IMG/VR virus record: IMGVR_UViG_3300027759_000044
DNA from: a virus
Taxonomy: Duplodnaviria > Caudoviricetes
Length of the DNA: 64,000 bases
Reading direction: 5' to 3' (one strand)
Part shown: positions 12,661-56,578 of the stretch, piece after piece
How the letters are laid out: every line of letters begins with the position of its first letter
How positions within the stretch are numbered: position 1 is the first letter of the stretch
The notes under the pieces: generated by a model
Told to the model about the DNA's origin: nothing
The model's input: the letters and a program-made list of their open reading frames with translations, nothing else
Database searches by the model: none
Program-made: the position numbers and the translations under genes

Positions 12661-12927
12661 ATGTCAGACTACACACCAAAAGTACCAGAAGTTAAATTCA
12701 ATAAAAACGGTTACGAGATTCGTACTGAAATTCTTAGACAAGCACAAGACCTTGTTGGCCAAGAGTTTTCATACAAATGGCAAGGTTGGGAAGTTTCTCA
12801 AGAAAAAGATAAAGATGGTAAACTTGTAACTAAAGTAGGTATGCCAGAATTTCCCGGAGTTGACAAAGTTTTAGAAACTGCGGAAAAGATGTACAGCTTT
12901 GTAAATCAAGCCACTAATAAAAAATAA
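12661..12927 (+). CDS. Hypothetical protein
   Basis: AAGGA RBS. Confidence 0.8.
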   Translation: MSDYTPKVPEVKFNKNGYEIRTEILRQAQDLVGQEFSYKWQGWEVSQEKDKDGKLVTKVGMPEFPGVDKVLETAEKMYSFVNQATNKK

Positions 12928-24089: not shown

Positions 24090-24102
24090 GATAAGTATTA
24101 AT

Positions 24103-25570: not shown

Positions 25571-25635
25571 TTTTCTATCGATGCCTAACGGGTCTATAGA
25601 AGAAAAAATCTTGCTTTACAAAGGAGAAAACTATG
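25571..25635 (+). promoter_or_regulatory. Structured 5' leader of dnaK with ROSE-like SD-sequestering hairpin
   Basis: CTTGCTT-TACA-AAGGAG pairs with a bulged G; upstream hairpin contains GATGCC..GGGTC; ATAAATA at 25563. Confidence 0.6.
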
Positions 25636-39732: not shown

Positions 39733-39998
39733 AATATTATACTTTTTACCGTGAGAACAACAATTTCACAGATATACTAACCGACAACAACATTAAGAAG
39801 GTTGTTGATATGAAAATATCATGGCATAGACACTTAATGATTGGGTTGAAGGAAGCTACTAATAGCGGAACATTTAGCTATATTACACTAAAGTATGGTG
39901 ATGAGATGATACCAAGTTTAACTAAAGATTATAGTCCAGTACCCGGTGTTGATTATATGCCTAAGAAAGATATCACTACGTTTGGACCTAAAGATTAA
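39729..39998 (+). CDS. Hypothetical protein
   Basis: ATGA-coupled. Confidence 0.65.
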   Translation: MKYYTFYRENNNFTDILTDNNIKKVVDMKISWHRHLMIGLKEATNSGTFSYITLKYGDEMIPSLTKDYSPVPGVDYMPKKDITTFGPKD

Positions 39999-40726
39999 TA
40001 AAGCATAGATAGCATCTTTGCTTCTGGGATACGAGTTGTAGTATTCTTTGAACCCAACAGGACTACAGTCCTGATTCCATTTGCTGTATCCATCATCATA
40101 ACAATACAACCACCGGCTTTGTTAATAAAGCCAGTTTTACTTACTAAGAATTTATAACCATGTCCTACTAGAGTATTGGTATTCTTAAATTCTGCTATTT
40201 TCTTTTTACCAATACTCCACCGTACAGCGTCCATATTACTTGCTTCTACTATTAATGGATAGGTGCTTGCGGCAAATACAAGTTTAATTAAATCGTGGGC
40301 TGTGCTGACGTTAGTATGCATTCTACCTGTAGGGTCTGTAAACATTGAGTTATTCATTTGTAATGACATTGCCTTAGCATTCATTGCTTCAATACAATTA
40401 TTATATCCGCCCGGATAGTAATCACATAATAGTTTAGCGGCATTGTTATCTGATTTGACTATTGCTAGATCAATTAATGTTTCTCTTGTTAGTTGTTTAT
40501 TGTATAGTTTTTTTGGAATAATTTCAGTTAGTGATTGTCCACTATCTAGTACAACCATAGCAGTCATTAGTTTAGTTATACTAGCGATGCTACGCACCTC
40601 AGTCATATTAGACCCTTCAAGTATTTTACCATTACTATCAGCCACTAACCAAGCCTGTGCTGTTAAAGGGTCGGCAAATACTGAAGTAATAGTTAGTGTT
40701 AGTATTGCTATAAGTTTTTTAATCAT
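39995..40726 (-). CDS. Peptidase S11 D-alanyl-D-alanine carboxy/endopeptidase (low-MW PBP)
   Basis: Signal peptide; SITK, SDN, KTG catalytic motifs. Confidence 0.92.
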   Translation of the reverse strand: MIKKLIAILTLTITSVFADPLTAQAWLVADSNGKILEGSNMTEVRSIASITKLMTAMVVLDSGQSLTEIIPKKLYNKQLTRETLIDLAIVKSDNNAAKLLCDYYPGGYNNCIEAMNAKAMSLQMNNSMFTDPTGRMHTNVSTAHDLIKLVFAASTYPLIVEASNMDAVRWSIGKKKIAEFKNTNTLVGHGYKFLVSKTGFINKAGGCIVMMMDTANGIRTVVLLGSKNTTTRIPEAKMLSMLY

Positions 40727-40735
40727 ATTATAAAT

Positions 40736-40981
40736 TTAAGGATAAGTCCAGCTATTTGATTCTGCGTCCCATACAGGGGGTGATGGTGGATAGAAGCTAA
40801 CCCAATTATGTGTTGTGTTATCCCATAGATATGGTTTACCATCTGATGGAGGATCAATTGGTGCTACCCATGAAACTTTTTCTTCATCCCAAATCCATGC
40901 ATCTGGATGAAAAGCATTATAAGCATTTTCTCTTACTTCTGCAATTTGTTCTGCGGTAGGTGTTATATTTTCTTGTATCAT
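40736..40981 (-). CDS. Small Trp/Pro-rich protein, possible fibre/adhesin accessory
   Basis: W.WDEE..W.APIDPP.DG..Y.WD repeats; last gene of the adhesin array. Confidence 0.6.
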   Translation of the reverse strand: MIQENITPTAEQIAEVRENAYNAFHPDAWIWDEEKVSWVAPIDPPSDGKPYLWDNTTHNWVSFYPPSPPVWDAESNSWTYP

Positions 40982-41005
40982 ATTTTTCCTTTGTGTTTAA
41001 ATTAT

Positions 41006-41947
41006 TTATATTAATGAATAGCTACAGGCTGCAAGATAATATCTAGCAGTACCAACACCAGTTACATCAGCAGAGACCACTCCGGTGTTTGACACTAAAT
41101 TAGTAAGTGCTGTTGAAGGTGAAACTCCATAACCAAATATACCTTTATCACCGCCGTAACCTGCGGCTGCTAGTCCAGATCTAGCGGTACCGACACCTGC
41201 AGTATCAGTAGCTACTACACCGGTGTTTGATACTAGATTATTTATTGATGATCCCGGAGAAGAACCTAAATATCCATATCCAAACATTGCTTGACCGGAA
41301 CTACCGTAACCAACGGCAGCTAGATATACTCTCGCAGTACCAACAGCAGTAGTATTAGAGGCAACTACACCCGTGTTTGATACTAAATTTGTTATTCCTG
41401 TATAACCAACACCACCATTGGTAGATCCAAATCCAAAAATAGCTTTATCAGTTCCATAACCAACGGCTGCTAGTTGTGTTCGTATCTGACCAATACCAGC
41501 TGTATCAGTAGCTACTACACCCGTGTTTGATACTTTGTTGGTTATTGCTGTAACAAACGGACTGAGACCGACTGTCCCAAATCCAAAAATAGCTTTATCA
41601 GTCCCGTACCCTGCGGCCGCAAGAAAACTTCTAGGTTCACTACTTGCATTGTATGTATTAGAGGCAACGATCCCCGTATTGCTTACTAGATTAGTATATG
41701 CGTAACTTAAGTCGCCAAAGGCAAATATACCTTTATCATACCCATAACCCGCAGCCGCTAGCCCACGTCTAGCAAAATCTACACCTGTAGTATCACTAGC
41801 TACTACTCCTGTATTATTTACTAGATTGGTTATTGCAGTATAAGTAGAGGGACTAGCAACTTGTCCATATCCAAATATAGCTCTTTGGGTAACCAGTTGA
41901 CTACTAACTGTTAGGTTTGCTAGTGTAAGGTTTGTAATAGTTGTCAT
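41006..41947 (-). CDS. Six-repeat Kelch-like beta-propeller protein 1
   Basis: 6x AIFG(Y/F)G..TNLVSNTGVVA.DT.GVGTAR..LAA.GYG. Confidence 0.8.
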   Translation of the reverse strand: MTTITNLTLANLTVSSQLVTQRAIFGYGQVASPSTYTAITNLVNNTGVVASDTTGVDFARRGLAAAGYGYDKGIFAFGDLSYAYTNLVSNTGIVASNTYNASSEPRSFLAAAGYGTDKAIFGFGTVGLSPFVTAITNKVSNTGVVATDTAGIGQIRTQLAAVGYGTDKAIFGFGSTNGGVGYTGITNLVSNTGVVASNTTAVGTARVYLAAVGYGSSGQAMFGYGYLGSSPGSSINNLVSNTGVVATDTAGVGTARSGLAAAGYGGDKGIFGYGVSPSTALTNLVSNTGVVSADVTGVGTARYYLAACSYSLI

Positions 41948-41960
41948 AATACTATCCTTT

Positions 41961-41994
41961 TTGTATAAATGTTTTTAATATTTTTCATATGATA
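41961..41994. repeat. 34-bp intergenic direct repeat, copy 1
   Basis: TTGTATAAATGTTTTTAATATTTTTCATATGATA, identical to 42984-43017. Confidence 0.9.
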
Positions 41995-42004
41995 CTTGAT
42001 AGCT

Positions 42005-42967
42005 TTATATTGCTCCAAATCCAAAACTTGCGGCTGCTAATTCAGTTCTTTGAGTACCAACACCTGTAACATCAGCAGAAACTACTCCGGTGTTACTTAC
42101 TAGATTTGTTAATGAATATACTGAAGGACTAACGAATCCATAACCAAATATAGCTTTATCACCACCGTACATAGCGGCTGCTGTTCCTTGTCTAGCAGTA
42201 CCCACACCAGCGGTATTGGTGGCTACTACACCGGTGTTTGATACTAGATTGGTTATTGCCGTAGTTGGGCCACCACCATAACCAAAAATAGCTTTGTCAT
42301 TGCCATAACCTGCGGCTGATAGTCTACTCCTAGCAGTACCTACCCCTGTAGTATCTGTCGCAACTACACCCGTGTTTGATACTAGGTTGGTTAATGAATA
42401 AGATGCCGGAAGCACGTTATTTTCCCCGTATCCAAAAATAGCTTTATCAGTACCATACATTGCGGCAGCAAGGCCAAATCTGACAGTACCAACACCTGTA
42501 GTATCACTAGCTACTACACCTGTGTTTGATACTAGGTTAGTTATCGATGTACTAAACGGGGATGCATCAATTGATCCATAACCAAAAATAGCTTGACCAG
42601 TACTTCCATATCCTGAGGCTGCAAGCAAACTTCTAGCAGTACCAACACCTGTAGTATCTGTAGCAACTACGCCGGTGTTTGATACTAGGTTAGTAATTGA
42701 TTTGTTAACATTTGTAGTTCCATATCCAAATATAGCTTTATCAGTACCATAACCTGCAGCTGCTAGACTTATTCTAGCAGTACCAACTCCGGTAGTATCA
42801 GTAGCTACTACACCTGTGTTTGAAACTTTGTTGGATATTGATACTTGGCCGAGGTAGTTGTTAGTAGTAGTTCCATATCCAAATATAGCAACAGCATTAT
42901 AACCTGTTACAGGATCGAATGTCATTCCACCGGTAATAGTAATATTTTCAAAAGTTACTTGAGCCAT
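42005..42967 (-). CDS. Six-repeat Kelch-like beta-propeller protein 2
   Basis: 6 repeats as above. Confidence 0.8.
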   Translation of the reverse strand: MAQVTFENITITGGMTFDPVTGYNAVAIFGYGTTTNNYLGQVSISNKVSNTGVVATDTTGVGTARISLAAAGYGTDKAIFGYGTTNVNKSITNLVSNTGVVATDTTGVGTARSLLAASGYGSTGQAIFGYGSIDASPFSTSITNLVSNTGVVASDTTGVGTVRFGLAAAMYGTDKAIFGYGENNVLPASYSLTNLVSNTGVVATDTTGVGTARSRLSAAGYGNDKAIFGYGGGPTTAITNLVSNTGVVATNTAGVGTARQGTAAAMYGGDKAIFGYGFVSPSVYSLTNLVSNTGVVSADVTGVGTQRTELAAASFGFGAI

Positions 42968-42983
42968 AATACTATCTCCTGTG

Positions 42984-43017
42984 TTGTATAAATGTTTTTA
43001 ATATTTTTCATATGATA
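42984..43017. repeat. 34-bp intergenic direct repeat, copy 2
   Basis: Identical to 41961-41994. Confidence 0.9.
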
Positions 43018-43020
43018 GTT

Positions 43021-43974
43021 TTAGGTTAAACCATATCCTGCAGCCGCAATTCCATATCTAGCAGTACCAACTCCTGTTGTGTTTGAGGCGACAACACCAG
43101 TGTTTGATACTAGATTAGTAGTTGACACACCTGGATTACTTGTGATAATACCGTAACCAAATATAGCTTTATCCACACCGTAAGTTGCGGCTGCAATCCA
43201 GCCCCTATAAGTGCCGGCATTGGAAATATCAGTGGCTACTATCCCTGTGTTTGATACTAAATTAGTATATGTAGTTCCGGATGAACTCATATATCCAAAT
43301 CCAAATATAGCCTTATCAATACCATAACCTGCGGCTCCAAGTCGATATTTAGGAGTACCAACACCTGCAGTGTCAGTTGCCACCACTCCTGTGTTTGATA
43401 CTAAATTGGTTATTGCTATTGCAATAGAGATTGAATTTTCACCAAATCCAAATATAGCTTGACCGCTTGAACCATATGTTGCGGCTGCTGGGTTTTGCCT
43501 AGTAGTACCAACCCCTGCCGTATCAGCAGCAACAATACCGGTATTTGACACAAGGTTGGTTGTTGCTACAGCACCAGCTAGACTATTAACCCCAAAGCCA
43601 AATATAGCTTTATCAGTACCGTATCCAGAAGCCGCAATTTGATATCTGCCACTCGCACTAGCATTTGTGACATCAGCAGAAACCACTCCGGTGTTTGACA
43701 CTAGATTGGTAATTGTTGTTACTCCGGAGCCTGGTCTACCAAATCCAAATATAGCCTTATCAGTTCCATAACCTGCGGCCGCCAATGAAAATCTACCAGT
43801 GCCTGTAACTGCCGCCTGATCATCAGAAACTACGCCAGTGTTTGATACTAGATTAGTGATAGCTAATCCAGCAAGTTGGTTAATAGTACCAAACCCAAAT
43901 ATAGCAAACTGAGTGGTAGGCTGTGCATAGAACGTAAGCCCTGCTGTAAATAGTATTCCTGGAGTAATAATCAT
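43021..43974 (-). CDS. Six-repeat Kelch-like beta-propeller protein 3
   Basis: 6 repeats as above. Confidence 0.8.
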   Translation of the reverse strand: MIITPGILFTAGLTFYAQPTTQFAIFGFGTINQLAGLAITNLVSNTGVVSDDQAAVTGTGRFSLAAAGYGTDKAIFGFGRPGSGVTTITNLVSNTGVVSADVTNASASGRYQIAASGYGTDKAIFGFGVNSLAGAVATTNLVSNTGIVAADTAGVGTTRQNPAAATYGSSGQAIFGFGENSISIAIAITNLVSNTGVVATDTAGVGTPKYRLGAAGYGIDKAIFGFGYMSSSGTTYTNLVSNTGIVATDISNAGTYRGWIAAATYGVDKAIFGYGIITSNPGVSTTNLVSNTGVVASNTTGVGTARYGIAAAGYGLT

Positions 43975-44025
43975 AATAATATCTCTTGTAGTATATTTAT
44001 GATTTAAAATTTGATGTGATTAACT

Positions 44026-44346
44026 TTAAATACCAACACCTAGCTTATAATTTAATATTTTGATATCAGTGCCCATACCAACAACACAACTTAAATCGTT
44101 TTTAGTAGCAACTATCGTCCAATTGTTATCAATCGGGTTCATCCAAATACTTACTACTGAATTAGCTTCATCACTGGCTTTTCCAGACATTACAGGAAAT
44201 TCTTTATATTTTTCTCTAAGACTTTTAAATATTTCTTTTGTGTTATAGCAGGGTAAATCTATTGATATAGATTCTTCTATTTCTTGTGAATAGGAGCTAG
44301 TTGATAGTCCTAAAAACATAATTACAAGTAGATAAGTTAATTTCAA
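44026..44346 (-). CDS. Secreted hypothetical protein
   Basis: Signal peptide; two Cys. Confidence 0.7.
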   Translation of the reverse strand: MKLTYLLVIMFLGLSTSSYSQEIEESISIDLPCYNTKEIFKSLREKYKEFPVMSGKASDEANSVVSIWMNPIDNNWTIVATKNDLSCVVGMGTDIKILNYKLGVGI

Positions 44347-44408
44347 AAAATTCTCCTAGTCGTAGTAGTATAACATAGTAGAGATAAATGTGCTAATCAC
44401 ATTTACCC

Positions 44409-47400
44409 TTATACGGTTAACGAATAGCTTGCGGCTGCAAGGTTAATTCTAGCAGTACCGATACCTGAAGTATCACTAGCCATTACACCTGTATTTGATA
44501 CTAAGTTAGTTATTGTTACATATGTACCTACAGCTATACCATAACCAAAAATAGCTTTATCACCACCATAGCCTGCGGCTGCAAGGTTATATCTAGCAGT
44601 ACCGATAGTTGTTGTATTACTAGCAACCACACCTGTATTTGATACTAGATTAGTGACTGAATATCGTTGATTTAATTGAATACTATATCCAAATCCAAAT
44701 ATAGCTTTATCGCCGCCATAACCTGCGGCTGCTAAACCAGATCTGGCAGTACCTACACCTGTAGTATCAGTCGCAACTACACCTACGCTTGATACTTTGT
44801 TGGTCATTGATACTGCATCGGGATACTTATTACCTAGGTAGGTAAATTGTGCTTGTCCATAACCAAATATAGCTTTATTACCACCATAAGTTGCGGCTGC
44901 AAGGCCCGATCTAGCAGTACCTACACCTGCAGTATCTGTGGCAATTACACCTAGATTTGATACTTTGTTGCTTATTGATATGTAAGTATTGCTAGAGCCA
45001 CCTTCTCCGTAACCGTATATGGCCAAGCCAACACCATACATAGCGGCTGCAACACCTCGTCTAGCAGTACCAACATTTGAGATATCTCCTGCAACAACTC
45101 CTGTATTTGAAACTAAATTTGTTATGTTATATCCAGTACCAGATTGTCCACCATAAGCAAACATAGCTTGACCAGTTGTACCATATCCTGTGCCTGCTAG
45201 AAAGGCTCTACTGGTTCCAACTCCAGTAGTGTCACTAGCAACAATTCCATAATATGATACTAGGTTAGTCATACGCACGTATGTAGTGGGGCTAGTCATT
45301 CCAAATCCAAAAATAGCGTTTTTAGCACCTGCGGGTGCCGCACTTGTTGTAATACTGTTACTTGCCGCACTTGGACTACCAGTACCTACACTATTTGTTG
45401 CTGTAACGGTAAATGTATAACTTGTACTAGGCACTAATCTAGTCACACTAATAGTACCTGATCCAGCTTGGGTTAATGTACCGGTAATATTACCAGGATT
45501 ACTTGTTGCGGTGTATCTTATAATAGTAGCACCACCATTAAATGCCGGCGCAGTATATACTACATTAGCAGTTTGATCGCTTGTGGCTGTAGCAGTTCCT
45601 ATTGTTGGAGCATTTGGAGGACCATTATTAGTAGTAATACTATTACTTGCCGAGCTCGGTGAGCTAGTACCAGCACTATTGGTTGCAGTTACGGTAAAGG
45701 TGTAAGCTGTAGCCGATGTTAATCCAGTGACACTAATAACACCACCGACTGCTTGATTTACTGTACCGGTAATACCACCGGGACTACTTGTTGCTGTATA
45801 ACTTGTTATAGATGTGCCTCCAGCATTTAATGGAGCAGAAAATTCTACATATGCACCAGTACTTCCGTTTGTATAAGCAATGATTGAAGTCGGCGATCCT
45901 GGTGCAATTGGTTGAATAGCTGATGTATTATTAGAATTTGCAGATGATGCTCCGTATGGATTAGTTCCAGTCACTACGCATCTTATTACATTAAACACAT
46001 CAAATGATGTTAAAATATATGTATTACTTGTGGCAAGAGATATATTAACTCCGTTACGTTGCCACTGATATGAATACTCCGGTGTAGGAGTACCCGTCCA
46101 AGTACCGGTACTACATGATAGTACTGATTCATAACTTTGTGTACCACTAATTGCAGGTGCTACTGTATTAACTGGTACTGTATAAGTTGTAATGCTATTA
46201 CTTGCACTACTTGGACTACCTGTTCCTACACTATTTGTAGCAGTAACTGTAAAGGTATAGCTAGTACCTGTAGTTAATCCATTTACAATAATAGTACCAG
46301 ATCCTGCTTGAGTTAATGTACCAGTAATACCACCCGGAGTACTTGTTGCGGTGTAACTTTGTATGATTGAACCACCATTACTTGTTGGTGCAGTAAATGC
46401 CACAGTTGCAGTAGTTAAACTTGTAGGTGTTGCAGTTCCTATTATAGGAGCATCTGGTACAATTGGAGCCACAGTAGAAGTAGAGTTAGAAATTTCAGAC
46501 GAATTTCCGTAAATATTAGTTCCGGTTACGACACATCTAATTGTATTTTCAGCATCTGATGCTACTAATGTATATGTACTAGAGGTAGCACCTCCTATAT
46601 TAGACGCACTACGTTGCCATTGATATGTATATGTTATTGGAGATGAACCAAGCCAAGTACCATTAGTAGTTGATAAAATTTGACCTACGGTAGCTGTCCC
46701 ACTTACAACAGGTGCTACAGTATTAAACGGAGCACTATATGCAGTAATACTATTACTTGATGCACTTGGTGAGCCAGTACCTATAATATTAGTAGCAGTT
46801 ACTCTAAATGTGTAACTAGTGTCTATTGTCAATCCAGTTACTGTAATATTACCACTACCTGATTGAGTTACTGTACCAGTGAGTCCACCCGGACTACTTG
46901 TCGCTGTATAGCTTAATATAGTAGAGCCACCATTATTAACAGGTGCGGTAAAATCTACTGTAGCTGATGTAGTTATAGCCGTAGCATTAACCCCTGTAGG
47001 AGCTCCAGGTGCAATTGGAGATATATTAGAAGTAGCATTAGAATTCGCTAAATTTGATCCAGCTGAATTAGTTCCGGTCACTACACATCTAATTGGATTT
47101 TCAGCATCAGCATCTACTAAAATATATGTACTAGCTGTTGCACTAGATATATTAACTCCGTTACGTTGCCATTGATATGTAAATACTATAGTCGGTGTGC
47201 CCGTCCAAGTACCATTTGTTGTTGACAGTGTTTGTCCAACTGTTGTTGTTCCAGTAACTACCGGAGCAACTGTATTAAGTGGTCCAGCACCCGGAGTAGC
47301 AATAATATTGCTTGGTAAACTAGGGGAACTGATACCAATACTATTTGTTGCAGTTACTCTAAAGGTATAACTAGTAGCTGGTGTTAATCCATCAACAGTA

Positions 47401-47642
47401 ATAGTACCAGATCCTGCTTGGTTCAACGTTCCAGTAATACCACCCGGACTACTGGTTGCTATATATTTTAATATAGTAGAACCTCCATTGTCAGATGGAG
47501 CGGTATATGATACATTAGCTGATGTTGGGATGTTGGAGAATGCTGTACCTATTATAGGATTATTCGGTATGGTTGTGCCGATAGCAGGTGTTATAATAAC
47601 ACTACCAGCTATATTGATACCGGGCCCGATAGATAAAGACAT
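44409..47642 (-). CDS. Large adhesin: (Fn3-Ig)x3, Fn3, Fn3, then a six-repeat propeller
   Basis: P.AP..G..YTFTVTATN.G (Fn3), P.NTVAP..YQWQR..IRCVVTGTN (Ig-like), C-terminal 6 repeats. Confidence 0.85.
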   Translation of the reverse strand: MSLSIGPGINIAGSVIITPAIGTTIPNNPIIGTAFSNIPTSANVSYTAPSDNGGSTILKYIATSSPGGITGTLNQAGSGTITVDGLTPATSYTFRVTATNSIGISSPSLPSNIIATPGAGPLNTVAPVVTGTTTVGQTLSTTNGTWTGTPTIVFTYQWQRNGVNISSATASTYILVDADAENPIRCVVTGTNSAGSNLANSNATSNISPIAPGAPTGVNATAITTSATVDFTAPVNNGGSTILSYTATSSPGGLTGTVTQSGSGNITVTGLTIDTSYTFRVTATNIIGTGSPSASSNSITAYSAPFNTVAPVVSGTATVGQILSTTNGTWLGSSPITYTYQWQRSASNIGGATSSTYTLVASDAENTIRCVVTGTNIYGNSSEISNSTSTVAPIVPDAPIIGTATPTSLTTATVAFTAPTSNGGSIIQSYTATSTPGGITGTLTQAGSGTIIVNGLTTGTSYTFTVTATNSVGTGSPSSASNSITTYTVPVNTVAPAISGTQSYESVLSCSTGTWTGTPTPEYSYQWQRNGVNISLATSNTYILTSFDVFNVIRCVVTGTNPYGASSANSNNTSAIQPIAPGSPTSIIAYTNGSTGAYVEFSAPLNAGGTSITSYTATSSPGGITGTVNQAVGGVISVTGLTSATAYTFTVTATNSAGTSSPSSASNSITTNNGPPNAPTIGTATATSDQTANVVYTAPAFNGGATIIRYTATSNPGNITGTLTQAGSGTISVTRLVPSTSYTFTVTATNSVGTGSPSAASNSITTSAAPAGAKNAIFGFGMTSPTTYVRMTNLVSYYGIVASDTTGVGTSRAFLAGTGYGTTGQAMFAYGGQSGTGYNITNLVSNTGVVAGDISNVGTARRGVAAAMYGVGLAIYGYGEGGSSNTYISISNKVSNLGVIATDTAGVGTARSGLAAATYGGNKAIFGYGQAQFTYLGNKYPDAVSMTNKVSSVGVVATDTTGVGTARSGLAAAGYGGDKAIFGFGYSIQLNQRYSVTNLVSNTGVVASNTTTIGTARYNLAAAGYGGDKAIFGYGIAVGTYVTITNLVSNTGVMASDTSGIGTARINLAAASYSLTV

Positions 47643-47682
47643 GAAATTACCTTTTATGTAAGTTTAATAGTATTTATGACAA

Positions 47683-47704
47683 TAAAAAAGGCTCCGTAGA
47701 GCCT
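47683..47704 (-). terminator. Rho-independent terminator (minus strand)
   Basis: AGGCTC-TACG-GAGCCT-TTTTT on the minus strand. Confidence 0.8.
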
Positions 47705-47722
47705 AATTTGATTATAATGCCG

Positions 47723-48394
47723 TTATGTTGTTTTATTCTCATTAGCGGCTGATTCAATAGTCTGTACTTCATTTGTCTGTATACTATTATCTGAAGGTGA
47801 TTGATTGGTTAACTCTAACATAATATCTTTTTGTTCTAACAATACAGTACCTTGTGGAACAAGCCCAATTTGCATTAATGCATTTAATGTTTGAGGATTA
47901 CTCATAGCATTTAATAGTTTAGCTGGACTAGGTCTACCCAAAGCAATGATTTCTGATTGTATCTCACGACCAACTGTTACTGTAAACTCATAATTAGCAT
48001 TAGCTTCAAACATTTCGTCATCAGTATATGGTGTCCCATCTTCATGTTTCAAGCGTGTTGGTTCAACTTCAGCATACAGTTCAGCCATATATTTTTCTAG
48101 TATTTTAATCTCTTTACGATTAAGTTCAAAAGCATGTCTTTGGTCCTCTAAATGTGATTCTAATTCAAGGATTTCTGCTTGTAAATTAAGTAATATGTGA
48201 GGTAGTGCAGGTACTGTTTTTAAGTGTTTCATTTCTTCAAGTTTAGCTTGATATTTTAATTCGGCACATTCTTCTAGTACTGCGGCACGTGTTCTGCCGA
48301 CATAGAAGCCTTGAAGTGTTTTGATTTTTTCCCAGGGTGTTGAACCGATAACTTGGTAACGGTAGTTGAATTCTGAATTTAGATTTGATGCCAT
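47723..48394 (-). CDS. Coiled-coil hypothetical protein heading the propeller locus
   Basis: 223 aa, helical; TATAAATA late motif at 48424-48431 (minus). Confidence 0.8.
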   Translation of the reverse strand: MASNLNSEFNYRYQVIGSTPWEKIKTLQGFYVGRTRAAVLEECAELKYQAKLEEMKHLKTVPALPHILLNLQAEILELESHLEDQRHAFELNRKEIKILEKYMAELYAEVEPTRLKHEDGTPYTDDEMFEANANYEFTVTVGREIQSEIIALGRPSPAKLLNAMSNPQTLNALMQIGLVPQGTVLLEQKDIMLELTNQSPSDNSIQTNEVQTIESAANENKTT

Positions 48395-48463
48395 TTGTTC
48401 TCTCTATAGGTTGTGTATAGAGATATTTATAAGCTAGAGAGTCTGTTTAAAAATTTTTAGAGT

Positions 48464-48637
48464 TTATTTGTTATTTTTAACAAACCAATAATGTTTTTGT
48501 AACTCTCTAATTACTTCACTTTCTGGTTGTTTAAAGTATCTTGTTGCCAACTCTACAAAGTCTAACCAACGATGACCATAATTATCATTACCTTGGCACC
48601 ATTGTTGGTACATTTGCTGTAATTCTCTACTCGTCAT
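48464..48637 (-). CDS. Small hypothetical protein (57 aa)
   Basis: Translated by me: MTSRELQQMYQQWCQGNDNYGHRWLDF... Confidence 0.55.
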   Translation of the reverse strand: MTSRELQQMYQQWCQGNDNYGHRWLDFVELATRYFKQPESEVIRELQKHYWFVKNNK

Positions 48638-48789
48638 TTCTTCTTTTTTTCTTGTTCTGATAACTTAGCTTTTACACCAGTTACCTCAAGTTTAGTCTCT
48701 TTTAGTATCTTTTCTGCTATAGGGCTTGAATAGTGAGGATACAATTTTGGGGGTGTTTTTGTTCTGGGTTTATGTTTGAACCAACTCAT
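48634..48789 (-). CDS. Small basic protein
   Basis: AAGGAG RBS before MSWFKHK. Confidence 0.6.
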   Translation of the reverse strand: MSWFKHKPRTKTPPKLYPHYSSPIAEKILKETKLEVTGVKAKLSEQEKKKK

Positions 48790-48875
48790 TGGTATGCTCC
48801 TTTTGATTGGGTATAAATATATATTTAATTGATTAAGTTCAATCAAATAGCATCATTCATAACTAAAGGAAATAA

Positions 48876-49952
48876 ATGAAAAAAATCTTATTAGCATTAT
48901 TATTAGCTTTAGCTAGTCAATATGTTGTTGCCCAAGACGCACCAACAACATTATTAAGCTCTGGAACTATAAGTCCTTATAAGGCTCAACGTAATGGACT
49001 ATTCATGGCCGCTGATTTTCTTGCGGCAGTTCCTGCAAATACAACATTTAAACTAAGCACACAGCCCTGGATGGATACGTCAAACAACACCGTTGTTATT
49101 TCAAAGATGCCATATGTGAGTGGCACCAAATATGCCAAAGATTACGCAAAAGAAGGCAGTGTGTTTACTGTAACCGAAGATAACAAGTATCGTTATTTTG
49201 TAGGTAATGGATTACCAAATACTGCAATGGGCGACTTTCCTGTTCAACCCGGTACCCCTGCCTACAAATATTATCAGGCTGCGCCAGGAGGACATGATTT
49301 TAGAACAGGTATTCCTGGTTCAGATTATTCAAGTGCCGCGGCGATTGGGATTAGTCCTTATGAGTTAAATATTCAAATACCTAAACATCCCAAGATAAGT
49401 GCTAAGCCAAATCCAATTGCCGCATTGCCAATTGGTGTCACACTCACAGGCACAGTGTGGCATGCCGAGATTGCAAACGCCAGTAGTACAGCATGGTATC
49501 CGCCAGCGTCAATACTACCGATTGACCAATGCTGGGGGCATCCTTATGCTCAACAATATCACTTGCATGGTTATTCATGGAAGTGTTTCCCTAATCAAGG
49601 TACAGAAGGACATTCACCATTGTTTGGTTATGCATTAGATGGATTTGGTATCTACGGTCCCAGAGGTGATGATGGCAAAATGGTAACTAACGACCAATTA
49701 GATGAATGTCATGGACATACTCACCCAGTAATGTGGGATGGTAAACTTCAAAATATCTATCACTATCACTTGAACCGTGAATTTCCATACGCTGTTGGTT
49801 GTTTTAGAGGTACAGTTAACTATGACCAAGCATTAGGATCAGCCGATTTGAGAGCGCACAACAAACCTCACGGGACACCAAGTAAAGCACATGACCATAA
49901 GAGTCATGGACCAAAAGGTATTATTGCAATACCAATTGGAGCCTTTCAATAA
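48876..49952 (+). CDS. Secreted YHYH-domain protein
   Basis: Signal peptide; GHP..YHLHG, HSPLFGYALDGF.IYG, LDECHGH, YHYH. Confidence 0.9.
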   Translation: MKKILLALLLALASQYVVAQDAPTTLLSSGTISPYKAQRNGLFMAADFLAAVPANTTFKLSTQPWMDTSNNTVVISKMPYVSGTKYAKDYAKEGSVFTVTEDNKYRYFVGNGLPNTAMGDFPVQPGTPAYKYYQAAPGGHDFRTGIPGSDYSSAAAIGISPYELNIQIPKHPKISAKPNPIAALPIGVTLTGTVWHAEIANASSTAWYPPASILPIDQCWGHPYAQQYHLHGYSWKCFPNQGTEGHSPLFGYALDGFGIYGPRGDDGKMVTNDQLDECHGHTHPVMWDGKLQNIYHYHLNREFPYAVGCFRGTVNYDQALGSADLRAHNKPHGTPSKAHDHKSHGPKGIIAIPIGAFQ

Positions 49953-52371: not shown

Positions 52372-53256
52372 ATGAAAAAAATTCTAATTACCGGCGGTTG
52401 CGGCTATATTGGTTCCGCACTTTTTACTAAATTTTGTAATAATCCAAATTATCAAGTCACTACGGTTGATGTTGAGTGGTTTGGGAATTTTATAAATCCT
52501 AATAATATCAAACTAGATTTTGGTGTATTAGATGAAAATTTCCTAGACCAATATGATATTATCATCCACGTAGCTGCCAATTCATCAGTTACATTATGTA
52601 AAGATATTAAAGATGCGTATGACAATAATGTCACTAAATTTATAAATCTAGTAAGTAAACTTAAAAAACAAAAATTCATATATGCGAGTAGTTCCTGTGT
52701 ATATGTAACGTCAGATAATCTACCAAAATCAGAAGATGATGTTTTATCTCCTATGGATGGTTTAACTTTTACCAAAACCACAATAGACCAATATATGCCA
52801 TTAACAAATGTTGAATATTACGGTTTAAGATTTGGAAGTGTTAATGGATATAGTCCTAATATGCGTTTAGATTTGATGATTAATTCAATGACTATTTCCG
52901 CAAAAACAAAGGGTGAAGTTAATGTTATGAATGGTTACGCACATAGACCAATACTTTCTACTAATGATTTAGTACGTGCAATTGAAACTATAGTTAACTC
53001 TGATGGGGATAAGCGAGGTGTTTACAACTTAGCATCAGTAAATCATAATATTTTAGACATTGGTAACAAAGTAGCAAAACACACCAATGTTCCGTTAGTA
53101 GATAAGGGTAATAATTTTACATATGATTTTTCTATTAATTCTGAGAAATTTATGAAAGAATTTAATTTTCAGTTCAACGATACCGTTGAGACAATTGTAG
53201 ATAATATATTATCTAACCCACACAATGATAAATGGCAAAAAAGAGATACTAAATGA
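52372..53256 (+). CDS. NAD-dependent epimerase/dehydratase (NDP-sugar)
   Basis: ITGGCGYIG, YASS..VY, LRFG.V.G.SP..R.DL; catalytic YxxxK appears as FxxxK. Confidence 0.85.
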   Translation: MKKILITGGCGYIGSALFTKFCNNPNYQVTTVDVEWFGNFINPNNIKLDFGVLDENFLDQYDIIIHVAANSSVTLCKDIKDAYDNNVTKFINLVSKLKKQKFIYASSSCVYVTSDNLPKSEDDVLSPMDGLTFTKTTIDQYMPLTNVEYYGLRFGSVNGYSPNMRLDLMINSMTISAKTKGEVNVMNGYAHRPILSTNDLVRAIETIVNSDGDKRGVYNLASVNHNILDIGNKVAKHTNVPLVDKGNNFTYDFSINSEKFMKEFNFQFNDTVETIVDNILSNPHNDKWQKRDTK

Positions 53257-54461
53257 ATTTTAAAATAAACGACCACTGTCTAGTATGTAAACATCCGATA
53301 AGTCATCAATTTTTAGATTTATCTGATCAACCTCTAGCTAATTCTTATCACAAAGGTGAGGATTTAGAGAAGTATCCATTAAGGATGAATGTTTGTACTA
53401 ATTGTTGGCATTCGCAATTAACAGTAAGTGTTGAACCATCCAAGATGTTTGAACATTATTTGTATATTAGTGATACCTCAAAAACACTTACAACATATTT
53501 TGAATGGGTCACTGATTATATATTAGACAAATGTAAGCCAAAAAATGTATTAGAAATTGCGTGTAATAGCGGGTTGTTACTAGAAATGTTCCAACAAAGG
53601 GGAATTGAATCATATGGGGTAGATCCTGCTAAAAATATTAGAGAATTAAGTGAAAAAAGAAATCTTAACGTATTTGTAGATTATTGGGATAAAAGATTTA
53701 GTGAAGAATTAAAGCTTACGGTAGGTAAGTTAGATTTAATTCTTGCATTCCACGTATTACCGCATGTTCAAGATCCTAATGATTTCATTGAGAGTTGTAT
53801 TAATGTATTATCTGATACAGGTACTATTTTCATTCAAACTAGTCAATGTGATATGTTATTGAATAATGAATTTGATGTAATATACCATGAACATTCAAGT
53901 TATTTTACAGGTAAATCTATACAAGAATTAGCACATAGACATAACTTATTTGTGTCTAGTATTATAAAGACTGATATACATAGTAAAAGCTTTTTATTCT
54001 CATTACAAAAGGCCCAATGTGATGAGACTCAACTTAGTGAGTTAATTGATTTTGAAACTCAGCACGGGATTTATAGCCTTGAGAAATATCATTCATTTGC
54101 CCAGATAGCAGAAACTAATAAAAATAAGTTACTAGTTGGATTACAGAAACTTAAAGATGAGGGATATTCTATAATTGGATATGGCGCTGCCGCAAAAGGT
54201 AATACGTTATTGAATTATATTGATTTTAAGTTAGATTATATTATAGATGATAGTTATATGAAATGGGGTTATTTAACTCCTGGTCAAGATATAGAAATAC
54301 ATAGTATTGATTTATTGAAGGACAAGTCTTTTGAAAAGATAGTATTTGTTCCTTTAGCTTGGAATTTTTATAAAGAAATTAAAGAAAGAATTACAAATGT
54401 ACGTGACACCAGTAATGATGTGTTTGTAAAGTATTTCCCTGATTATATGGAAGAAAAATGA
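53253..54461 (+). CDS. NDP-sugar C-methyltransferase (TylCIII/TcaB9-like)
   Basis: CxxC..QPLAN..CxxC zinc site, IYHEH.SYF, GYGAAAKG.TLLN. Confidence 0.9.
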   Translation: MNFKINDHCLVCKHPISHQFLDLSDQPLANSYHKGEDLEKYPLRMNVCTNCWHSQLTVSVEPSKMFEHYLYISDTSKTLTTYFEWVTDYILDKCKPKNVLEIACNSGLLLEMFQQRGIESYGVDPAKNIRELSEKRNLNVFVDYWDKRFSEELKLTVGKLDLILAFHVLPHVQDPNDFIESCINVLSDTGTIFIQTSQCDMLLNNEFDVIYHEHSSYFTGKSIQELAHRHNLFVSSIIKTDIHSKSFLFSLQKAQCDETQLSELIDFETQHGIYSLEKYHSFAQIAETNKNKLLVGLQKLKDEGYSIIGYGAAAKGNTLLNYIDFKLDYIIDDSYMKWGYLTPGQDIEIHSIDLLKDKSFEKIVFVPLAWNFYKEIKERITNVRDTSNDVFVKYFPDYMEEK

Positions 54462-55135
54462 TTAAATTAATTACAGATCATCCTGTTGCCTTAGAAAGTG
54501 ATGACCACATTCACCCTGATGGCATTTATTTAGATAATAATATTAACTATACATTTGTAGAGAATGTAGAAAAATATTTTAATAATACTAAAATAAATAT
54601 GCTTGATTTGGGTTGTGCCGGTGGTGAATTAGTTAGTAGAATGGCTGAACAAGGTCATAACACTGTGGGTTTAGAAGGTTCGGACCATTGTGTAAATGTT
54701 AGAGAAGAGGTAATAAAGCATCATAATACCTCACCATTAGGATTAAAAAATTGGGCCCAATATCACAATAGTAGACTGTTTACATGTGATGTGACTAAGA
54801 AATATCAACTATTATTAAATGATAGTCCAATGAAGTTTGATTTAATAACTTGTTTTGATGTTATGGAGCATTTCCATGAACATGAGTTAGATATGTTTTT
54901 TAAGATGATTCAATATCATTTAAAACCTGAAGGTATATTTGTTGCTAGTATAGCTTTATTTGACCTTATAAAGAATGAGGGAGTTAACTGGCACAAATCA
55001 GTATATCCGAAAGAATGGTGGGTGGAGACAAATTCTAAATATTTAAAAGAAATACCTTATCCGTTTAATATCACTAATAGAGGACAGAATATTCATACTA
55101 GTGGTGTATATGTTTATAGTGGTATGTTAAAGTGA
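54458..55135 (+). CDS. Class I SAM-dependent methyltransferase
   Basis: LDLGCAGG, FDLITCFDVMEH. Confidence 0.88.
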   Translation: MIKLITDHPVALESDDHIHPDGIYLDNNINYTFVENVEKYFNNTKINMLDLGCAGGELVSRMAEQGHNTVGLEGSDHCVNVREEVIKHHNTSPLGLKNWAQYHNSRLFTCDVTKKYQLLLNDSPMKFDLITCFDVMEHFHEHELDMFFKMIQYHLKPEGIFVASIALFDLIKNEGVNWHKSVYPKEWWVETNSKYLKEIPYPFNITNRGQNIHTSGVYVYSGMLK

Positions 55136-56100
55136 TTGTAACATCATGTCCTTTAAGGATATCGTTAGTGGGTGGGTCAACCGATCACCCGCATTTTATT
55201 AATAAGTACGGACACGGATCTGTTATTAGTTTCCCCTCAACATTACGTACATATATAACTATTCACCAAGATATTTTTGGTAGTAATTCTATAGGTAATA
55301 ATTATCATATTAATTATAGTAAACGAGAAACCGTAAAAAAAGTATCTGAAATTCAAAATGAATTAATACGATATTGTTTTGAATATCTTAATGTAGATAA
55401 AATGAATTGTAGTTTGACTTCAGATATTTATAGTTCTGGTTCAGGGTTAGCGGCAAGTTCTTCTTATTTACAAGCTTTAATAAAAGCCATATATGTATTG
55501 CGTGAAGAACATATAACTGAATTTGAAGTATGTAAAATAGCAGAGATTATTGAAAGAAATTTTAATCCATTGGTAGGACAACAAGATTTCTATGGAAGTA
55601 CCGGCGGATTGAAACGCATAGATTTTTATAAAAACACTGATCCGTCAATACGTTATTTAAGCACAAACATATTCAAACAATTAAACATATATTTACTATA
55701 TACAGGAGTATTACGCAGTAGTACCAATATATTAGAAAGTATAGATATAGACAAATCAATACCTCTATTACAGGATGTTGAAGATTTAGAAATTGCTATA
55801 AACAATTGTGATATTGAAAAGTTTGGTAACGTTATAAATCGTGGTTGGGAAAATAAAAAAGCTACCAGTAATTTAATATGTGGATCGCCCGCACTTTTAG
55901 AATTAGATAATAAACTTAAAAATGATTCTAACATATTAGCACACAAATTATGTGGTGCCGGCAATGGTGGATATTTTCTAATTTTTACTAATTTCAATAG
56001 TGGATTTGATCCAACTAAATATGATATGTTGAAATCCATCAGCATATCAGAGACCGGATTAAAATATATTAATTTAAAAAATGAATTTACAAAACTTTAA
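55132..56100 (+). CDS. GHMP sugar kinase, HddA (heptose-7-phosphate kinase)-like
   Basis: PLRISL.GG.TD, GSGLA.SS, GQQD, KL.GAG.GG. Confidence 0.85.
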   Translation: MIVTSCPLRISLVGGSTDHPHFINKYGHGSVISFPSTLRTYITIHQDIFGSNSIGNNYHINYSKRETVKKVSEIQNELIRYCFEYLNVDKMNCSLTSDIYSSGSGLAASSSYLQALIKAIYVLREEHITEFEVCKIAEIIERNFNPLVGQQDFYGSTGGLKRIDFYKNTDPSIRYLSTNIFKQLNIYLLYTGVLRSSTNILESIDIDKSIPLLQDVEDLEIAINNCDIEKFGNVINRGWENKKATSNLICGSPALLELDNKLKNDSNILAHKLCGAGNGGYFLIFTNFNSGFDPTKYDMLKSISISETGLKYINLKNEFTKL

Positions 56101-56578
56101 ATCTTGCCTTGATAATATAAAGCAAGATGACCTATCTAAATTAAAACAATACGTTCTTGGTGCCAAAAACATAATCATTCTAGGTAACGGTGGTAGTAAC
56201 GCTATTAGCTGTCATCTAGCACAAGATTATACAAAAGCATTGGGAATTAAAACCATAGCATTCGGAGATAGTTCCAGAATGAGTTGTTACGCAAATGACT
56301 ATGGATGGGATAATGCCTATACCAAATTTTTAGAACATTTTGCTGATTCTGATACCATGGTGATATTGATATCATCTTCTGGTAATTCTCAAAATATACT
56401 CAATGCGGCTGAATATTGTGTAGGTAAACATGGTATGATTACTTTATCCGGATTTAATCCTGACAATAAATTAAAAACAAAATATGGTTCACCCTCTTTA
56501 TTAAATTTTTATATTCCCAGTAATGATTATGGGGTGGTGGAAATACTTCACGAACTCATTTTACATTCTGTCATATGA
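56081..56578 (+). CDS. gmhA: SIS-domain phosphoheptose isomerase (GmhA-like)
   Basis: GNGGS.A..H...D, AND.G, ISSSGNS.NI, VE..H. Confidence 0.82.
   Translation: MNLQNFKSCLDNIKQDDLSKLKQYVLGAKNIIILGNGGSNAISCHLAQDYTKALGIKTIAFGDSSRMSCYANDYGWDNAYTKFLEHFADSDTMVILISSSGNSQNILNAAEYCVGKHGMITLSGFNPDNKLKTKYGSPSLLNFYIPSNDYGVVEILHELILHSVI

What the first reader, a model, noticed from the sequence alone, without database searches (positions are those of the whole stretch)
40736..48394. Antibody-like adhesin array: 24 near-identical propeller blades with hypervariable loops across four genes
Seen: four co-oriented genes each carry six ~50-aa repeats with a constant scaffold (AIFGYG / TNLVSNTGVVA.DT.GVGTAR / LAAAGYG). 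Variation concentrates in the loop after AIFG(Y/F)G, with different length and sequence in nearly every blade, and in 2-3 residues after the R. The DNA of the constant parts is near-identical between blades and genes. One copy is carried on an (Fn3-Ig)x3-Fn3-Fn3 stalk. The locus is bracketed by a coiled-coil gene and a Trp-rich small gene. Inference: a recombination-diversified binding repertoire (constant framework plus variable loops on one propeller face), with no reverse transcriptase in the window. It could be an undescribed host-range diversification system.
Basis: partly seen in the sequence, partly recalled or inferred. Interest (0 to 1): 0.8.

Follow-up and report, generated by a model that had tools for sequence, protein, structure and literature searches.

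The report
Phage Kelch-like propeller adhesin gene family
A giant freshwater phage carries four neighbouring genes for six-bladed propeller "heads" with a fixed frame and variable loops on one face; they are most likely virion adhesins from a large unnamed phage family that diversifies by ordinary recombination, not by a dedicated diversification machine.

Summary
The repeats are real: four co-oriented minus-strand genes each carry six ~50-aa blades (24 in all). One gene sits on an (Fn3-Ig)x3-Fn3-Fn3 stalk. The claim of near-identical DNA is wrong: the constant parts average 70% identity (maximum 83%).

The fold is a Kelch-type six-bladed propeller (Z 35 to KLHL17), but no Kelch, Pfam or PHROG profile matches. 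The two variable sites, the B-C loop and the two residues after the invariant Arg, lie on the face that Kelch domains use to bind ligands. They are rich in Tyr, Ser and Gly.

The family is large in freshwater phage metagenomes. It usually occurs in tandem arrays with a strongly conserved helical gene (47723-48394) and a small Trp-rich gene. A complete 524-kb relative has about 16 copies and no reverse transcriptase.

Synonymous sites show concerted evolution of the scaffold. Relatives show mosaic orthologues and blades moved between positions. Public runs show that one gene (43021-43974) is strain-variable and that one propeller is a local hot spot. Many alleles are nevertheless identical across samples.

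My reading is a virion adhesin multigene family that evolves by duplication, blade-level conversion and cassette replacement. The scan noted the same family on two other genomes.

The parts
47723..48394 (-). cc223: a conserved helical (long hairpin or coiled-coil) protein and core partner of the module; function unknown
   Evidence: ORF. Model pLDDT 78, all-helical, with no fold or profile match. Homologues lie next to propeller genes in 35 of 77 loci at 55-94% aa identity. 3711 database homologues, none with a descriptive name.
48424..48431 (-). T4-type late-promoter motif TATAAATA about 30 nt upstream of cc223
   Evidence: The total count of this motif in the window is not above chance, so only its position is suggestive.
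47689..47704 (-). Terminator-like hairpin plus T-run between cc223 and gD. CATAAATA follows it upstream of gD.
45318..47642 (-). gD N-terminal anchor-like peptide plus stalk: (Fn3-Ig-like)x3-Fn3-Fn3
   Evidence: Five Pfam fn3 stretches. DNA repeat families D5 and D8. Hoc-like PHROG hits. Weak Ig_2/Ig_3 hits.
44409..45317 (-). gD six-bladed propeller head (aa 776-1077); hot spot of strain-level variation
   Evidence: In run X4, 37 substitutions and 4 indels fall in 44044-45806, against 0-6 in the other genes. The run X7 variant is classified.
44026..44346 (-). sp106: a small protein with a signal-peptide-like N-terminus inserted in the array; not part of the conserved module
   Evidence: ORF. 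A homologue occurs only in the syntenic relative L038/L042 (58% aa).
43021..43974 (-). gC six-bladed propeller gene; a strain-variable cassette
   Evidence: It is not covered in the 2025 runs X4 and X5, whose contigs break at 43013 and 44044. Its words are held only by the 2017 runs X1-X3 and X7.
42005..42967 (-). gB six-bladed propeller gene (the one modelled)
   Evidence: AlphaFold2 pLDDT 83.8, pTM 0.82. Kelch-type fold.
41006..41947 (-). gA six-bladed propeller gene
42984..43020 (-). 37-nt upstream element of gB, 36 of 37 identical to the one upstream of gA
   Evidence: Family D11. A 31-nt core is identical, occurs only at these two places in the window, and is absent from the 77 loci.
41961..41997 (-). 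37-nt upstream element of gA (second copy)
40736..40981 (-). w81: a small Trp-rich protein (W.WDE...W repeats) and second conserved partner of the module. TATAAATA lies at 41003-41010 just upstream.
   Evidence: Homologues are in 34 loci, usually at the end of or inside arrays.

Best explanation
The four genes are paralogues of a large, unnamed phage family of Kelch-fold six-bladed propeller heads. They most likely act as virion-displayed adhesins or receptor-binding modules.

How each head is built:
- Each blade is a four-strand sheet: A = LAAAGY, B = AIFGYG, C = TNLVS, D = VVAxD.
- The long B-C loop and the two residues after the invariant Arg of the D-A loop sit on one face. Six blades give roughly 70 variable, Tyr/Ser/Gly-rich residues around a fixed ring (DTTGVGTAR).
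- Each gene therefore offers a different binding surface on the same frame.

How the head is attached (inferred):
- The head hangs from a short N-terminal anchor peptide of the ITITGG..GG..PPP type.
- The attachment is either direct (gA, gB, gC) or at the tip of an eight-domain Fn3/Ig stalk (gD).
- The genes appear to be expressed late, together with two conserved partners of unknown role (cc223 and w81).

How diversity arises:
- It comes from ordinary processes: gene duplication (about 16 copies in a relative), homologous exchange between blades that keeps the scaffold DNA alike while the loops stay different, and replacement of whole genes between strains.

Shown: repeats, fold, position of the variation, family spread, linkage, concerted evolution, and mosaic and strain variation. 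Inferred: virion location, ligand binding, and any role in host range.
For: Fold:
- VIA Z 35.2, rmsd 2.1 A over 277 aa to KLHL17; other six-bladed folds reach Z 19 or less.
- Foldseek TM 0.76/0.85 to KLHL12 and Keap1.
- DSSP shows a C-terminal strand closing blade 1, as in Keap1 (PMC12314335).

Face:
- The B-C and D-A loops fall on the same face by meander topology. They form the Keap1 ligand pocket (PMC12314335).
- Composition: Tyr is 20% at R+1/R+2 against 4% background; the B-C loop is Ser 22%, Thr 13.5%, Gly 12%.

Adhesin role:
- Homologous heads are fused to Mtd_N (a tail-fibre N-terminal domain, E 2e-8), Laminin_G_3, cadherin/Big_9 and Fn3.
- Short and stalked forms share an N-terminal anchor motif.
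- Late-promoter motifs lie upstream of cc223, w81, gD and gC.
- In jumbo phage CBB three clustered Kelch proteins occur, and CBB_552 is in the virion (PMC5259590).

Family:
- More than 2342 homologues and 402 IMG/VR loci.
- 174 of 182 propeller ORFs have six blades, in arrays of 2-5.
- The order cc223 - propellers - w81 recurs.
- About 16 copies at 8 sites in the 524-kb relative.

Evolution:
- Scaffold dN/dS is 0.10-0.22, the B-C loop 0.71-1.16, and R+1/R+2 from 0.67 to above 2.
- Four-fold-site identity between blades of one gene is 0.53-0.71 in all five clades. Between clades it is 0.29-0.50, falling to 0.29-0.34 against the most distant clade. The baseline is 0.35.
- Blades 1-5 carry no positional signature.
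- L060/L062 orthologues are mosaic, with 0-1 versus 21-22 mismatches per 50 nt.
- Whole blades are 90-96% identical at different positions, genes and phages.
- In public runs gC is missing from 2025 strains that keep gA, gB and the stalk at 99.4-100%. The gD head carries clustered substitutions and a recoded blade-6 loop.
Against: - There is no direct evidence that any of these proteins is in the virion or binds anything.
- No sequence profile (Kelch, PLL, PHROG) matches, and no cultured phage has a BLAST-detectable homologue.
- TATAAATA is not more frequent in the window than by chance, and gA and gB lack it.
- Loop dN/dS near 1 is what unconstrained loops would give.
- The window's own blades show no recent exchange.
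- Metagenome contigs of repeats can be chimeric. This weakens the run X7 variant, whose depth differs from that of its neighbours.
- The cc223-gB complex prediction gave no verdict.
Confidence: 0.6

Rival explanations
1. The heads are capsid or tail decoration proteins that give general, weak adhesion to particles, mucus-like polymers or non-host surfaces (Hoc-like). They would not determine which host is infected. This shares the virion-display part of the best explanation and differs only in role.
For: The gD stalk resembles Hoc-like Ig/Fn3 decoration proteins (PHROG hits phrog_4069 and phrog_2973). A genome with about 16 heads seems too many for classical tail fibres. The heads are probably monomeric.
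Against: Related heads are fused to the tail-fibre-type anchor Mtd_N. Strain-level cassette turnover and a local hot spot suggest an arms race with a specific partner.
Confidence: 0.17
2. The proteins are intracellular binders of host proteins, like poxvirus Kelch-like proteins. The variable face would then target host defence or regulatory proteins during infection.
For: The Kelch fold is classically a protein-protein interaction module. Large viral multigene families of repeat proteins often act on host factors. The three short genes (gA, gB, gC) have no signal peptide.
Against: There is no BTB, BACK or F-box partner domain. Family members are fused to extracellular-type modules (Fn3, Ig, cadherin, LamG, Mtd_N). 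Late-type promoter motifs are present. A Kelch protein is in the CBB virion (PMC5259590).
Confidence: 0.1
3. It is a dedicated, programmed diversification system (DGR-like mutagenic retrohoming, or invertase/cassette switching) that rewrites the loops at high frequency within a population.
For: A constant frame carries loop-confined variation. The blade-6 loop of gD is recoded in one strain. gA and gB share an identical upstream element that could support unequal exchange.
Against: No RT was found among 29 window ORFs or in the complete 524-kb relative (positive controls rang). There is no template/variable repeat pair; repeats are 60-78% identical. The same alleles are letter-identical in up to seven metagenome contigs, and run X3 is identical over the locus. 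Strain differences include as many synonymous scaffold changes as loop changes, which fits conversion or divergence rather than targeted mutagenesis.
Confidence: 0.03
4. The propellers are enzymes (for example sialidase-, mutarotase- or oxidase-like) acting on host surface sugars.
For: The bacterial Kelch mutarotase YjhT/NanM is a fold neighbour (Z 24.3), and sialidases reach Z 17-18. A sugar-synthesis island lies nearby (52372-57327).
Against: The invariant residues are the same in all six blades and look structural. The would-be active face is the most variable part. No enzyme profile matches.
Confidence: 0.04

Closest known systems
Kelch-domain virion proteins of jumbo phages (Pectobacterium phage CBB: CBB_550, 552, 554; also reported for Pseudomonas and Yersinia giant phages; PMC5259590)
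   Same: Six-bladed Kelch-type propellers in giant myoviruses. Several copies are clustered, and at least one (CBB_552) is found in the mature particle.
   Different: The CBB proteins match InterPro Kelch signatures, whereas this family matches none and has no BLAST match in cultured phages. No work that I found describes near-perfect sixfold repeats, face-confined variation or concerted evolution in the CBB proteins.
Eukaryotic Kelch domains (Keap1, KLHL12, KLHL17)
   Same: The fold (Z 33-35, rmsd 2.1-2.3 A), six blades, C-terminal strand closure, Gly after strand B, a long B-C loop, and a ligand pocket made of B-C and D-A loops (PMC12314335).
   Different: Sequence identity is only 11-15%. 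The GG doublet is G-Y-G here, and the conserved Tyr/Trp pair is absent. There are no BTB/BACK domains. The blades are about 80% alike within one protein.
Fungal NWD/HET-D/HET-E WD40 repeat repertoire (Paoletti et al. 2007, PMC1805685; PMC2873952)
   Same: A multigene family of propeller repeats. The scaffold evolves in concert, repeats are exchanged within and between loci, and a few surface positions per repeat vary on the interaction face.
   Different: It is WD40 rather than Kelch, and cellular rather than viral. The fungal repeats are far more alike in DNA and vary in number. Here the DNA is about 70% identical, the blade number is fixed at six, and positive selection is not proven.
Phage adhesins with a constant frame and hypervariable segments: T-even gp38 (glycine-rich motifs and hypervariable segments; from my own knowledge) and DGR targets such as Mtd (Mtd_N domain seen; PMC10743442)
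   Same: A receptor-binding tip in which conserved segments flank variable, ligand-contacting segments. Conserved segments can serve as recombination sites. Some family members use the Mtd_N anchor.
   Different: The folds are unrelated. There is no reverse transcriptase or template repeat here. Variation is spread over six equivalent blades.
Propeller-containing receptor-binding protein of Staphylococcus phage phi11 (PMC4901313)
   Same: A phage tail receptor-binding protein that uses a beta-propeller module for host recognition; phi11 adsorption needs GlcNAc on wall teichoic acid (abstract). That its propeller has five blades and contacts the glycan is from my own knowledge.
   Different: It is a five-bladed, single-copy part of a trimeric baseplate protein, with no detectable sequence relation.
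Designed symmetric Kelch scaffolds (SAKe6; PDB 7on7, 7ong, 8pjz)
   Same: Idealised sixfold-symmetric Kelch propellers. Foldseek gives TM 0.70-0.82.
   Different: They are man-made. The phage family reaches near-symmetry naturally and carries natural loop diversity.

Membership tests
Kelch-type beta-propeller (structural superfamily) | Six four-stranded antiparallel blades around a central axis | tested here: met
   Model pLDDT 83.8. VIA Z 35.2 to KLHL17, rmsd 2.1 A over 277 aa. Foldseek TM 0.76/0.85.
Kelch-type beta-propeller (structural superfamily) | Ring closure by a C-terminal strand that completes blade 1 | tested here: met
   In DSSP, strand 311-315 follows blade 6, and blade 1 has only strands B-D from the N-terminus. 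Keap1 shows the same closure (PMC12314335). This was read from secondary structure, not from coordinates.
Kelch repeat (Pfam Kelch_1-6 sequence families) | A match to a Kelch profile; a GG doublet after strand B plus a conserved Tyr/Trp pair | tested here: not met
   No Pfam hit for gA, gB or gC even at E up to 10. The motif is G-Y-G, and the scaffold has no Trp. Only 16-22% of members of a few related Atlas clusters carry Kelch profiles.
PLL-like lectin propeller (PF26607) | A profile match; seven blades; sugar sites between blades | tested here: not met
   No hit in the Pfam copy used. The family profile against PLL chains in the PDB gives E 0.71. There are six blades, not seven. Sugar binding is not testable here.
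Diversity-generating retroelement target | A reverse transcriptase and a template repeat near a variable repeat | tested here: not met
   No RVT_1 in the complete 524-kb relative, with positive controls. None among 29 window ORFs. No near-identical repeat pair.
Concerted-evolution propeller repertoire (fungal NWD type) | Repeats more alike within a gene or lineage than between lineages (concerted evolution) | tested here: met
   Four-fold-site identity is 0.53-0.71 within genes in all five clades, 0.29-0.50 between clades, and 0.35 at baseline.
Concerted-evolution propeller repertoire (fungal NWD type) | Exchange of repeats between positions and loci | tested here: met
   Seen in relatives: 10 of 15 blade pairs at 88% identity or more lie at different positions, and L060/L062 are mosaic. 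Not seen among the window's own blades, whose best match is 71-83%.
Concerted-evolution propeller repertoire (fungal NWD type) | Positive selection on a few surface positions | tested here: inconclusive
   Pairwise dN/dS at R+1/R+2 is 0.67, 1.03, above 1 and 2.4 on 10-12 codons each. The B-C loop gives 0.71-1.16. No site model was run.
Concerted-evolution propeller repertoire (fungal NWD type) | Variable repeat number between alleles | tested here: not met
   174 of 182 propeller ORFs have exactly six blades. The exceptions are fragments and one 12-blade ORF.
Phage receptor-binding or virion adhesin protein (functional class) | Presence in the virion and binding to a host surface ligand | not testable with these tools
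   Only indirect evidence: fusions to Mtd_N, Fn3, Ig, cadherin and LamG, late-promoter motifs, and the CBB precedent (PMC5259590).

The most novel reading that the evidence does not exclude
An abundant group of freshwater phages keeps a pool of interchangeable propeller blades, each carrying its own binding loops. Up to about 100 blades per genome are shared among co-infecting phages. The conserved scaffold DNA acts as the recombination handle. Blade-by-blade reshuffling and whole-gene replacement would then build new six-part binding faces combinatorially, with selection keeping the loops different. This would be a viral counterpart of the fungal NWD repeat repertoire and a new, retroelement-free route to changes in host recognition. 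The highly conserved cc223 would be the common docking or assembly partner.
Probability: 0.3. Interest if true: 0.75.

Novelty: new variant of a known kind. Interest (0 to 1): 0.6.

Why it matters
The family has thousands of members in freshwater phage metagenomes, none with a descriptive name and none matching a Pfam or PHROG profile. It takes up about 3% of a 524-kb phage genome.

If the heads are adhesins, they are a main unread determinant of what these uncultured giant phages attach to. Their turnover between strains would then be a readable record of phage-host arms races in lakes.

The mode of evolution is documented for fungal immune receptors but, as far as I could find, not for viruses. 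It combines concerted evolution of a frame with variation held on one face and no retroelement.

The protein is also a natural, near-symmetric Kelch scaffold that tolerates many loop sets. That is of interest for binder engineering.

Tried and rejected
- Sequence families: Pfam and PHROG scans of the propellers, cc223 and w81 gave nothing useful. PDB sequence and profile searches also gave nothing.
- Cultured phages: INPHARED searches by DNA and protein with the locus, gB, cc223 and w81 found no match.
- Own genome: no whole genome is held for the window, so copy number was taken from the 524-kb relative instead.
- cc223 fold: Foldseek against the PDB and BFVD gave no match below E 0.001. The Atlas gave only low-score leads.
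- Complex prediction of cc223 with gB: no verdict, score 0.00. This is not evidence for or against binding.
- All-against-all BLAST for HSPs of 90% or more found only nine short out-of-register pieces, because long HSPs swallow the patches. Sliding-window and blade-level comparisons replaced it.
- A first codon analysis used a wrong offset and must be ignored. One search is the corrected version.
- The second read-laying run lost the run X4 contig at the 96% threshold. The full list of X4 differences in the gD head was therefore not obtained; only 10 substitutions and 4 indels were classified.
- Universal codon-level selection on the scaffold is rejected, because the column-specific codon preference decays to baseline in distant clades.


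Full report
**Context.** The window belongs to a very large T4-like phage from freshwater.
- Its genes include an ATP-dependent DNA ligase, UvdE, Hsp70 and a ClpX-like ATPase, a dCMP-deaminase-sized ORF and virion-protein PHROG hits.
- Earlier notes of this scan place gp26/gp51-like genes and a 26-tRNA cluster on the same genome.
- The locus occurs in 20 public freshwater or aquatic metagenome runs from 11 studies dated 2017-2025.
- No whole genome is held for the window.
- The finding lies in a minus-strand block (39995-48846) inside a mostly plus-strand region.

**Observation.** The four genes are gA (41006-41947), gB (42005-42967), gC (43021-43974) and gD (44409-47642).
- Each has six repeats of 45-56 aa.
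- The aligned 24 blades give the consensus AIFGyG-[loop]-iTNLVSNTGVVAxDTtGVGTaR-xx-LAAAgYGxdk.
- Variation is concentrated in the loop after GYG (7-17 aa) and in the two residues after Arg.
- gD carries five Pfam fn3 domains. Three Ig-like modules are interleaved with them, as shown by DNA repeat families and Hoc-like PHROG hits.
- The claim of near-identical DNA fails. The constant parts are 70% identical on average and 83% at most. There is no difference within versus between genes, or at the same versus different blade position.

**Fold.** An AlphaFold2 model of gB, built on a 50-sequence alignment, has pLDDT 83.8 and pTM 0.82.
- It is a six-bladed Kelch-type propeller. VIA gives Z 35.2 to KLHL17 (rmsd 2.1 A, 277 aa), 33-34 to KLHL12 and Keap1, and 24 to bacterial YjhT. 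NHL, YWTD, sialidase and lectin propellers reach 19 or less. Foldseek agrees.
- At sequence level nothing matches. No Pfam hit appears at E up to 10, no PHROG matches, and the PDB profile search gives nothing below E 0.5.
- The family is therefore Kelch by fold but not a member of the Kelch sequence families.

**Where the variation sits.** DSSP maps the motif to four strands: A (LAAAGY), B (AIFGYG), C (TNLVS) and D (VVAxD).
- In a four-strand meander the B-C and D-A connections lie on one face, and the A-B and C-D turns lie on the other.
- Both variable sites are therefore on one face. In Keap1 that face forms the ligand pocket (PMC12314335).
- One variable residue per blade (GYG-x-DK) lies on the opposite face.
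- The variable positions are not random in composition. Tyr is 20% at R+1/R+2 against 4% background. Ser, Thr and Gly dominate the loop, and Lys, Pro, Ile and Cys are almost absent. That is typical of binding surfaces.
- I could not reach the model coordinates, so this is topology, not measured distance.

**Family and context elsewhere.** gB has more than 2342 homologues in the 5.8-billion protein set. Where a source gives a name it is only 'hypothetical protein', and one is from an uncultured Caudovirales phage. IMG/VR holds 402 matching loci.
- In the 77 loci fetched, 174 of 182 propeller ORFs have exactly six blades, and arrays of 2-5 genes are the rule.
- Heads are joined to several N-terminal parts. 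Examples are a short motif of the type MSITITGGITLNGGGWTI..PPP (shared by short forms and stalked forms), an Mtd_N tail-fibre domain, Laminin_G_3, cadherin/Big_9, and long Fn3 stalks.
- The order cc223 - propellers - w81 recurs in many unrelated contigs. cc223 is present in 35 loci (55-94% aa identity) and w81 in 34.
- cc223 has 3711 database homologues, none with a descriptive name. It is a long helical hairpin with no fold match.

**The close relative.** Only L038/L042 share the window's flanking genes (85-94% aa identity).
- L042 lies on a complete 524,565-bp contig.
- There the array is rearranged to: p70, propeller, w81, propeller, cc223, a two-blade fragment, sp106, S11 peptidase.
- That genome has about 16 full propeller genes and one fragment at eight sites. 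It has no reverse transcriptase.

**Expression hints.**
- TATAAATA lies about 30 nt upstream of cc223 and just upstream of w81.
- CATAAATA precedes gD and gC.
- A hairpin with a T-run follows cc223.
- gA and gB instead share a 36/37-identical upstream element that occurs nowhere else in the window or the loci.

**Evolution.** Across 80 distinct propeller DNAs, pairwise identity is 65-78% or at least 99.5%, with almost nothing between.
- Blades 1-5 have no positional signature; only blade 6 finds blade 6.
- Synonymous sites are informative. Column-specific codon choices are shared across the family.
- Four-fold-site identity between blades is 0.54 in every comparison within the window's clade: within a gene, between the window's genes, and against phages whose cc223 is at least 87% identical. 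It falls to 0.41 and 0.35 for clades with cc223 at 75% and 55-66%. The baseline is 0.35.
- In each of five clades, blades of one gene are more alike (0.53-0.71) than blades of different clades (0.29-0.50). Six blades are ancestral to all clades, so this is concerted evolution of the scaffold.
- Direct traces of exchange exist in relatives. Orthologues in L060 and L062 alternate between 0-1 and 21-22 mismatches per 50 nt. Some patches are 93-97% identical to other blades, paralogues or other phages. Of 15 whole-blade pairs at 88% identity or more, 10 lie at different positions.
- The window's own blades have no partner above 83%.
- In four moderately diverged pairs, dN/dS is 0.10-0.22 in the scaffold, 0.71-1.16 in the B-C loop, and 0.67 to above 2 at R+1/R+2. 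The loops therefore evolve at about the neutral rate. Positive selection is possible at the two post-Arg residues but is not shown.

**Population level.** Many alleles are letter-identical in up to seven metagenome contigs. This excludes rapid hypermutation.
- In public runs, X3 is identical to the window.
- Run X4 (2025, another study) has one strain at even depth. It has 0 differences in 1033 nt of gA, 6 in 963 nt of gB and 1 in 1927 nt of the stalk.
- The same strain has 37 substitutions plus 4 indels in 44044-45806, which covers sp106 and the gD head. It has no contig over gC, with breaks at 43013 and 44044.
- Words of gC are held only by the 2017 runs.
- The classified differences mix synonymous scaffold changes with loop changes. 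In X4 the blade-6 loop is recoded by four compensating indels. A variant contig in X7 has clustered changes and a 3-nt insertion next to the invariant Arg. This looks like conversion patches and cassette replacement.
- Assembly chimeras in repeats cannot be excluded for X7.

**Verdict.** This is a real and large family of Kelch-fold propeller heads with one variable face. They are most likely virion adhesins, by analogy with Kelch proteins in the jumbo phage CBB virion (PMC5259590) and by their fusion partners.
The closest mechanistic parallel is the fungal NWD WD40 repertoire (PMC1805685).
- It is not a dedicated diversification system, the DNA is not near-identical, and binding and host range remain inferred.
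- First readers of this scan noted the same family elsewhere on this genome and on two other genomes.

Noticed in passing
window 41961-41997 and 42984-43020: The intergenic DNA upstream of gA and gB is 36 of 37 identical (31-nt core identical), although the two genes are only about 67% identical. The element occurs nowhere else in the window or in the 77 related loci. It may be a regulatory site, or a recent conversion that could support unequal exchange removing or duplicating gB.
   Followed up: partly
window 39995-40726 (-): A phage-encoded D-Ala-D-Ala carboxypeptidase (Peptidase_S11, E 5e-35) with a signal-peptide-like N-terminus lies directly downstream of the array. It is 85% conserved in the 524-kb relative.
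   Followed up: partly
window 48876-49952 (+): A YHYH-domain protein (PF14240) with a signal-peptide-like N-terminus lies next to the module on the other strand. No homologue turned up in the stretch of the syntenic relative that was fetched.
   Followed up: no
window 24043-25308 and 25633-27528 (+): The phage carries a ClpX-like AAA+ unfoldase with its zinc finger and a full-length Hsp70/DnaK (E 1.6e-258).
   Followed up: no
window 48464-48613 (-): A 49-aa Trp/Tyr-rich ORF below the usual size cut-off fills most of the apparent gap between the 70-aa gene and cc223.
   Followed up: partly
window 12927-13826 and 13846-14751 (+): Two tandem DUF5672 paralogues.
   Followed up: no
window 58284-59771 and 59792-63142 (+): Two large ORFs (495 and 1116 aa) have no Pfam or PHROG match. 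The next ORF (63153-63863) matches virion structural PHROGs, so this is probably the start of a fibre or baseplate region.
   Followed up: no
L044 11027-12991: One 654-aa relative carries 12 blade matches, which would make a double propeller. It is the only such case among 182 ORFs.
   Followed up: no
L042 11759-12130 (524-kb relative): A 123-aa ORF has the N-terminal anchor motif and only two blades. It sits where the window has the 1077-aa gD, and looks like a deletion remnant or a minimal form.
   Followed up: partly
L045 12013-12336 and L052 10883-11239: Distant w81 relatives carry an extra N-terminal domain (MS.FA.I...IV..VIV type). The Trp-rich W.WDE...W part is therefore a separable C-terminal module.
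   Followed up: no
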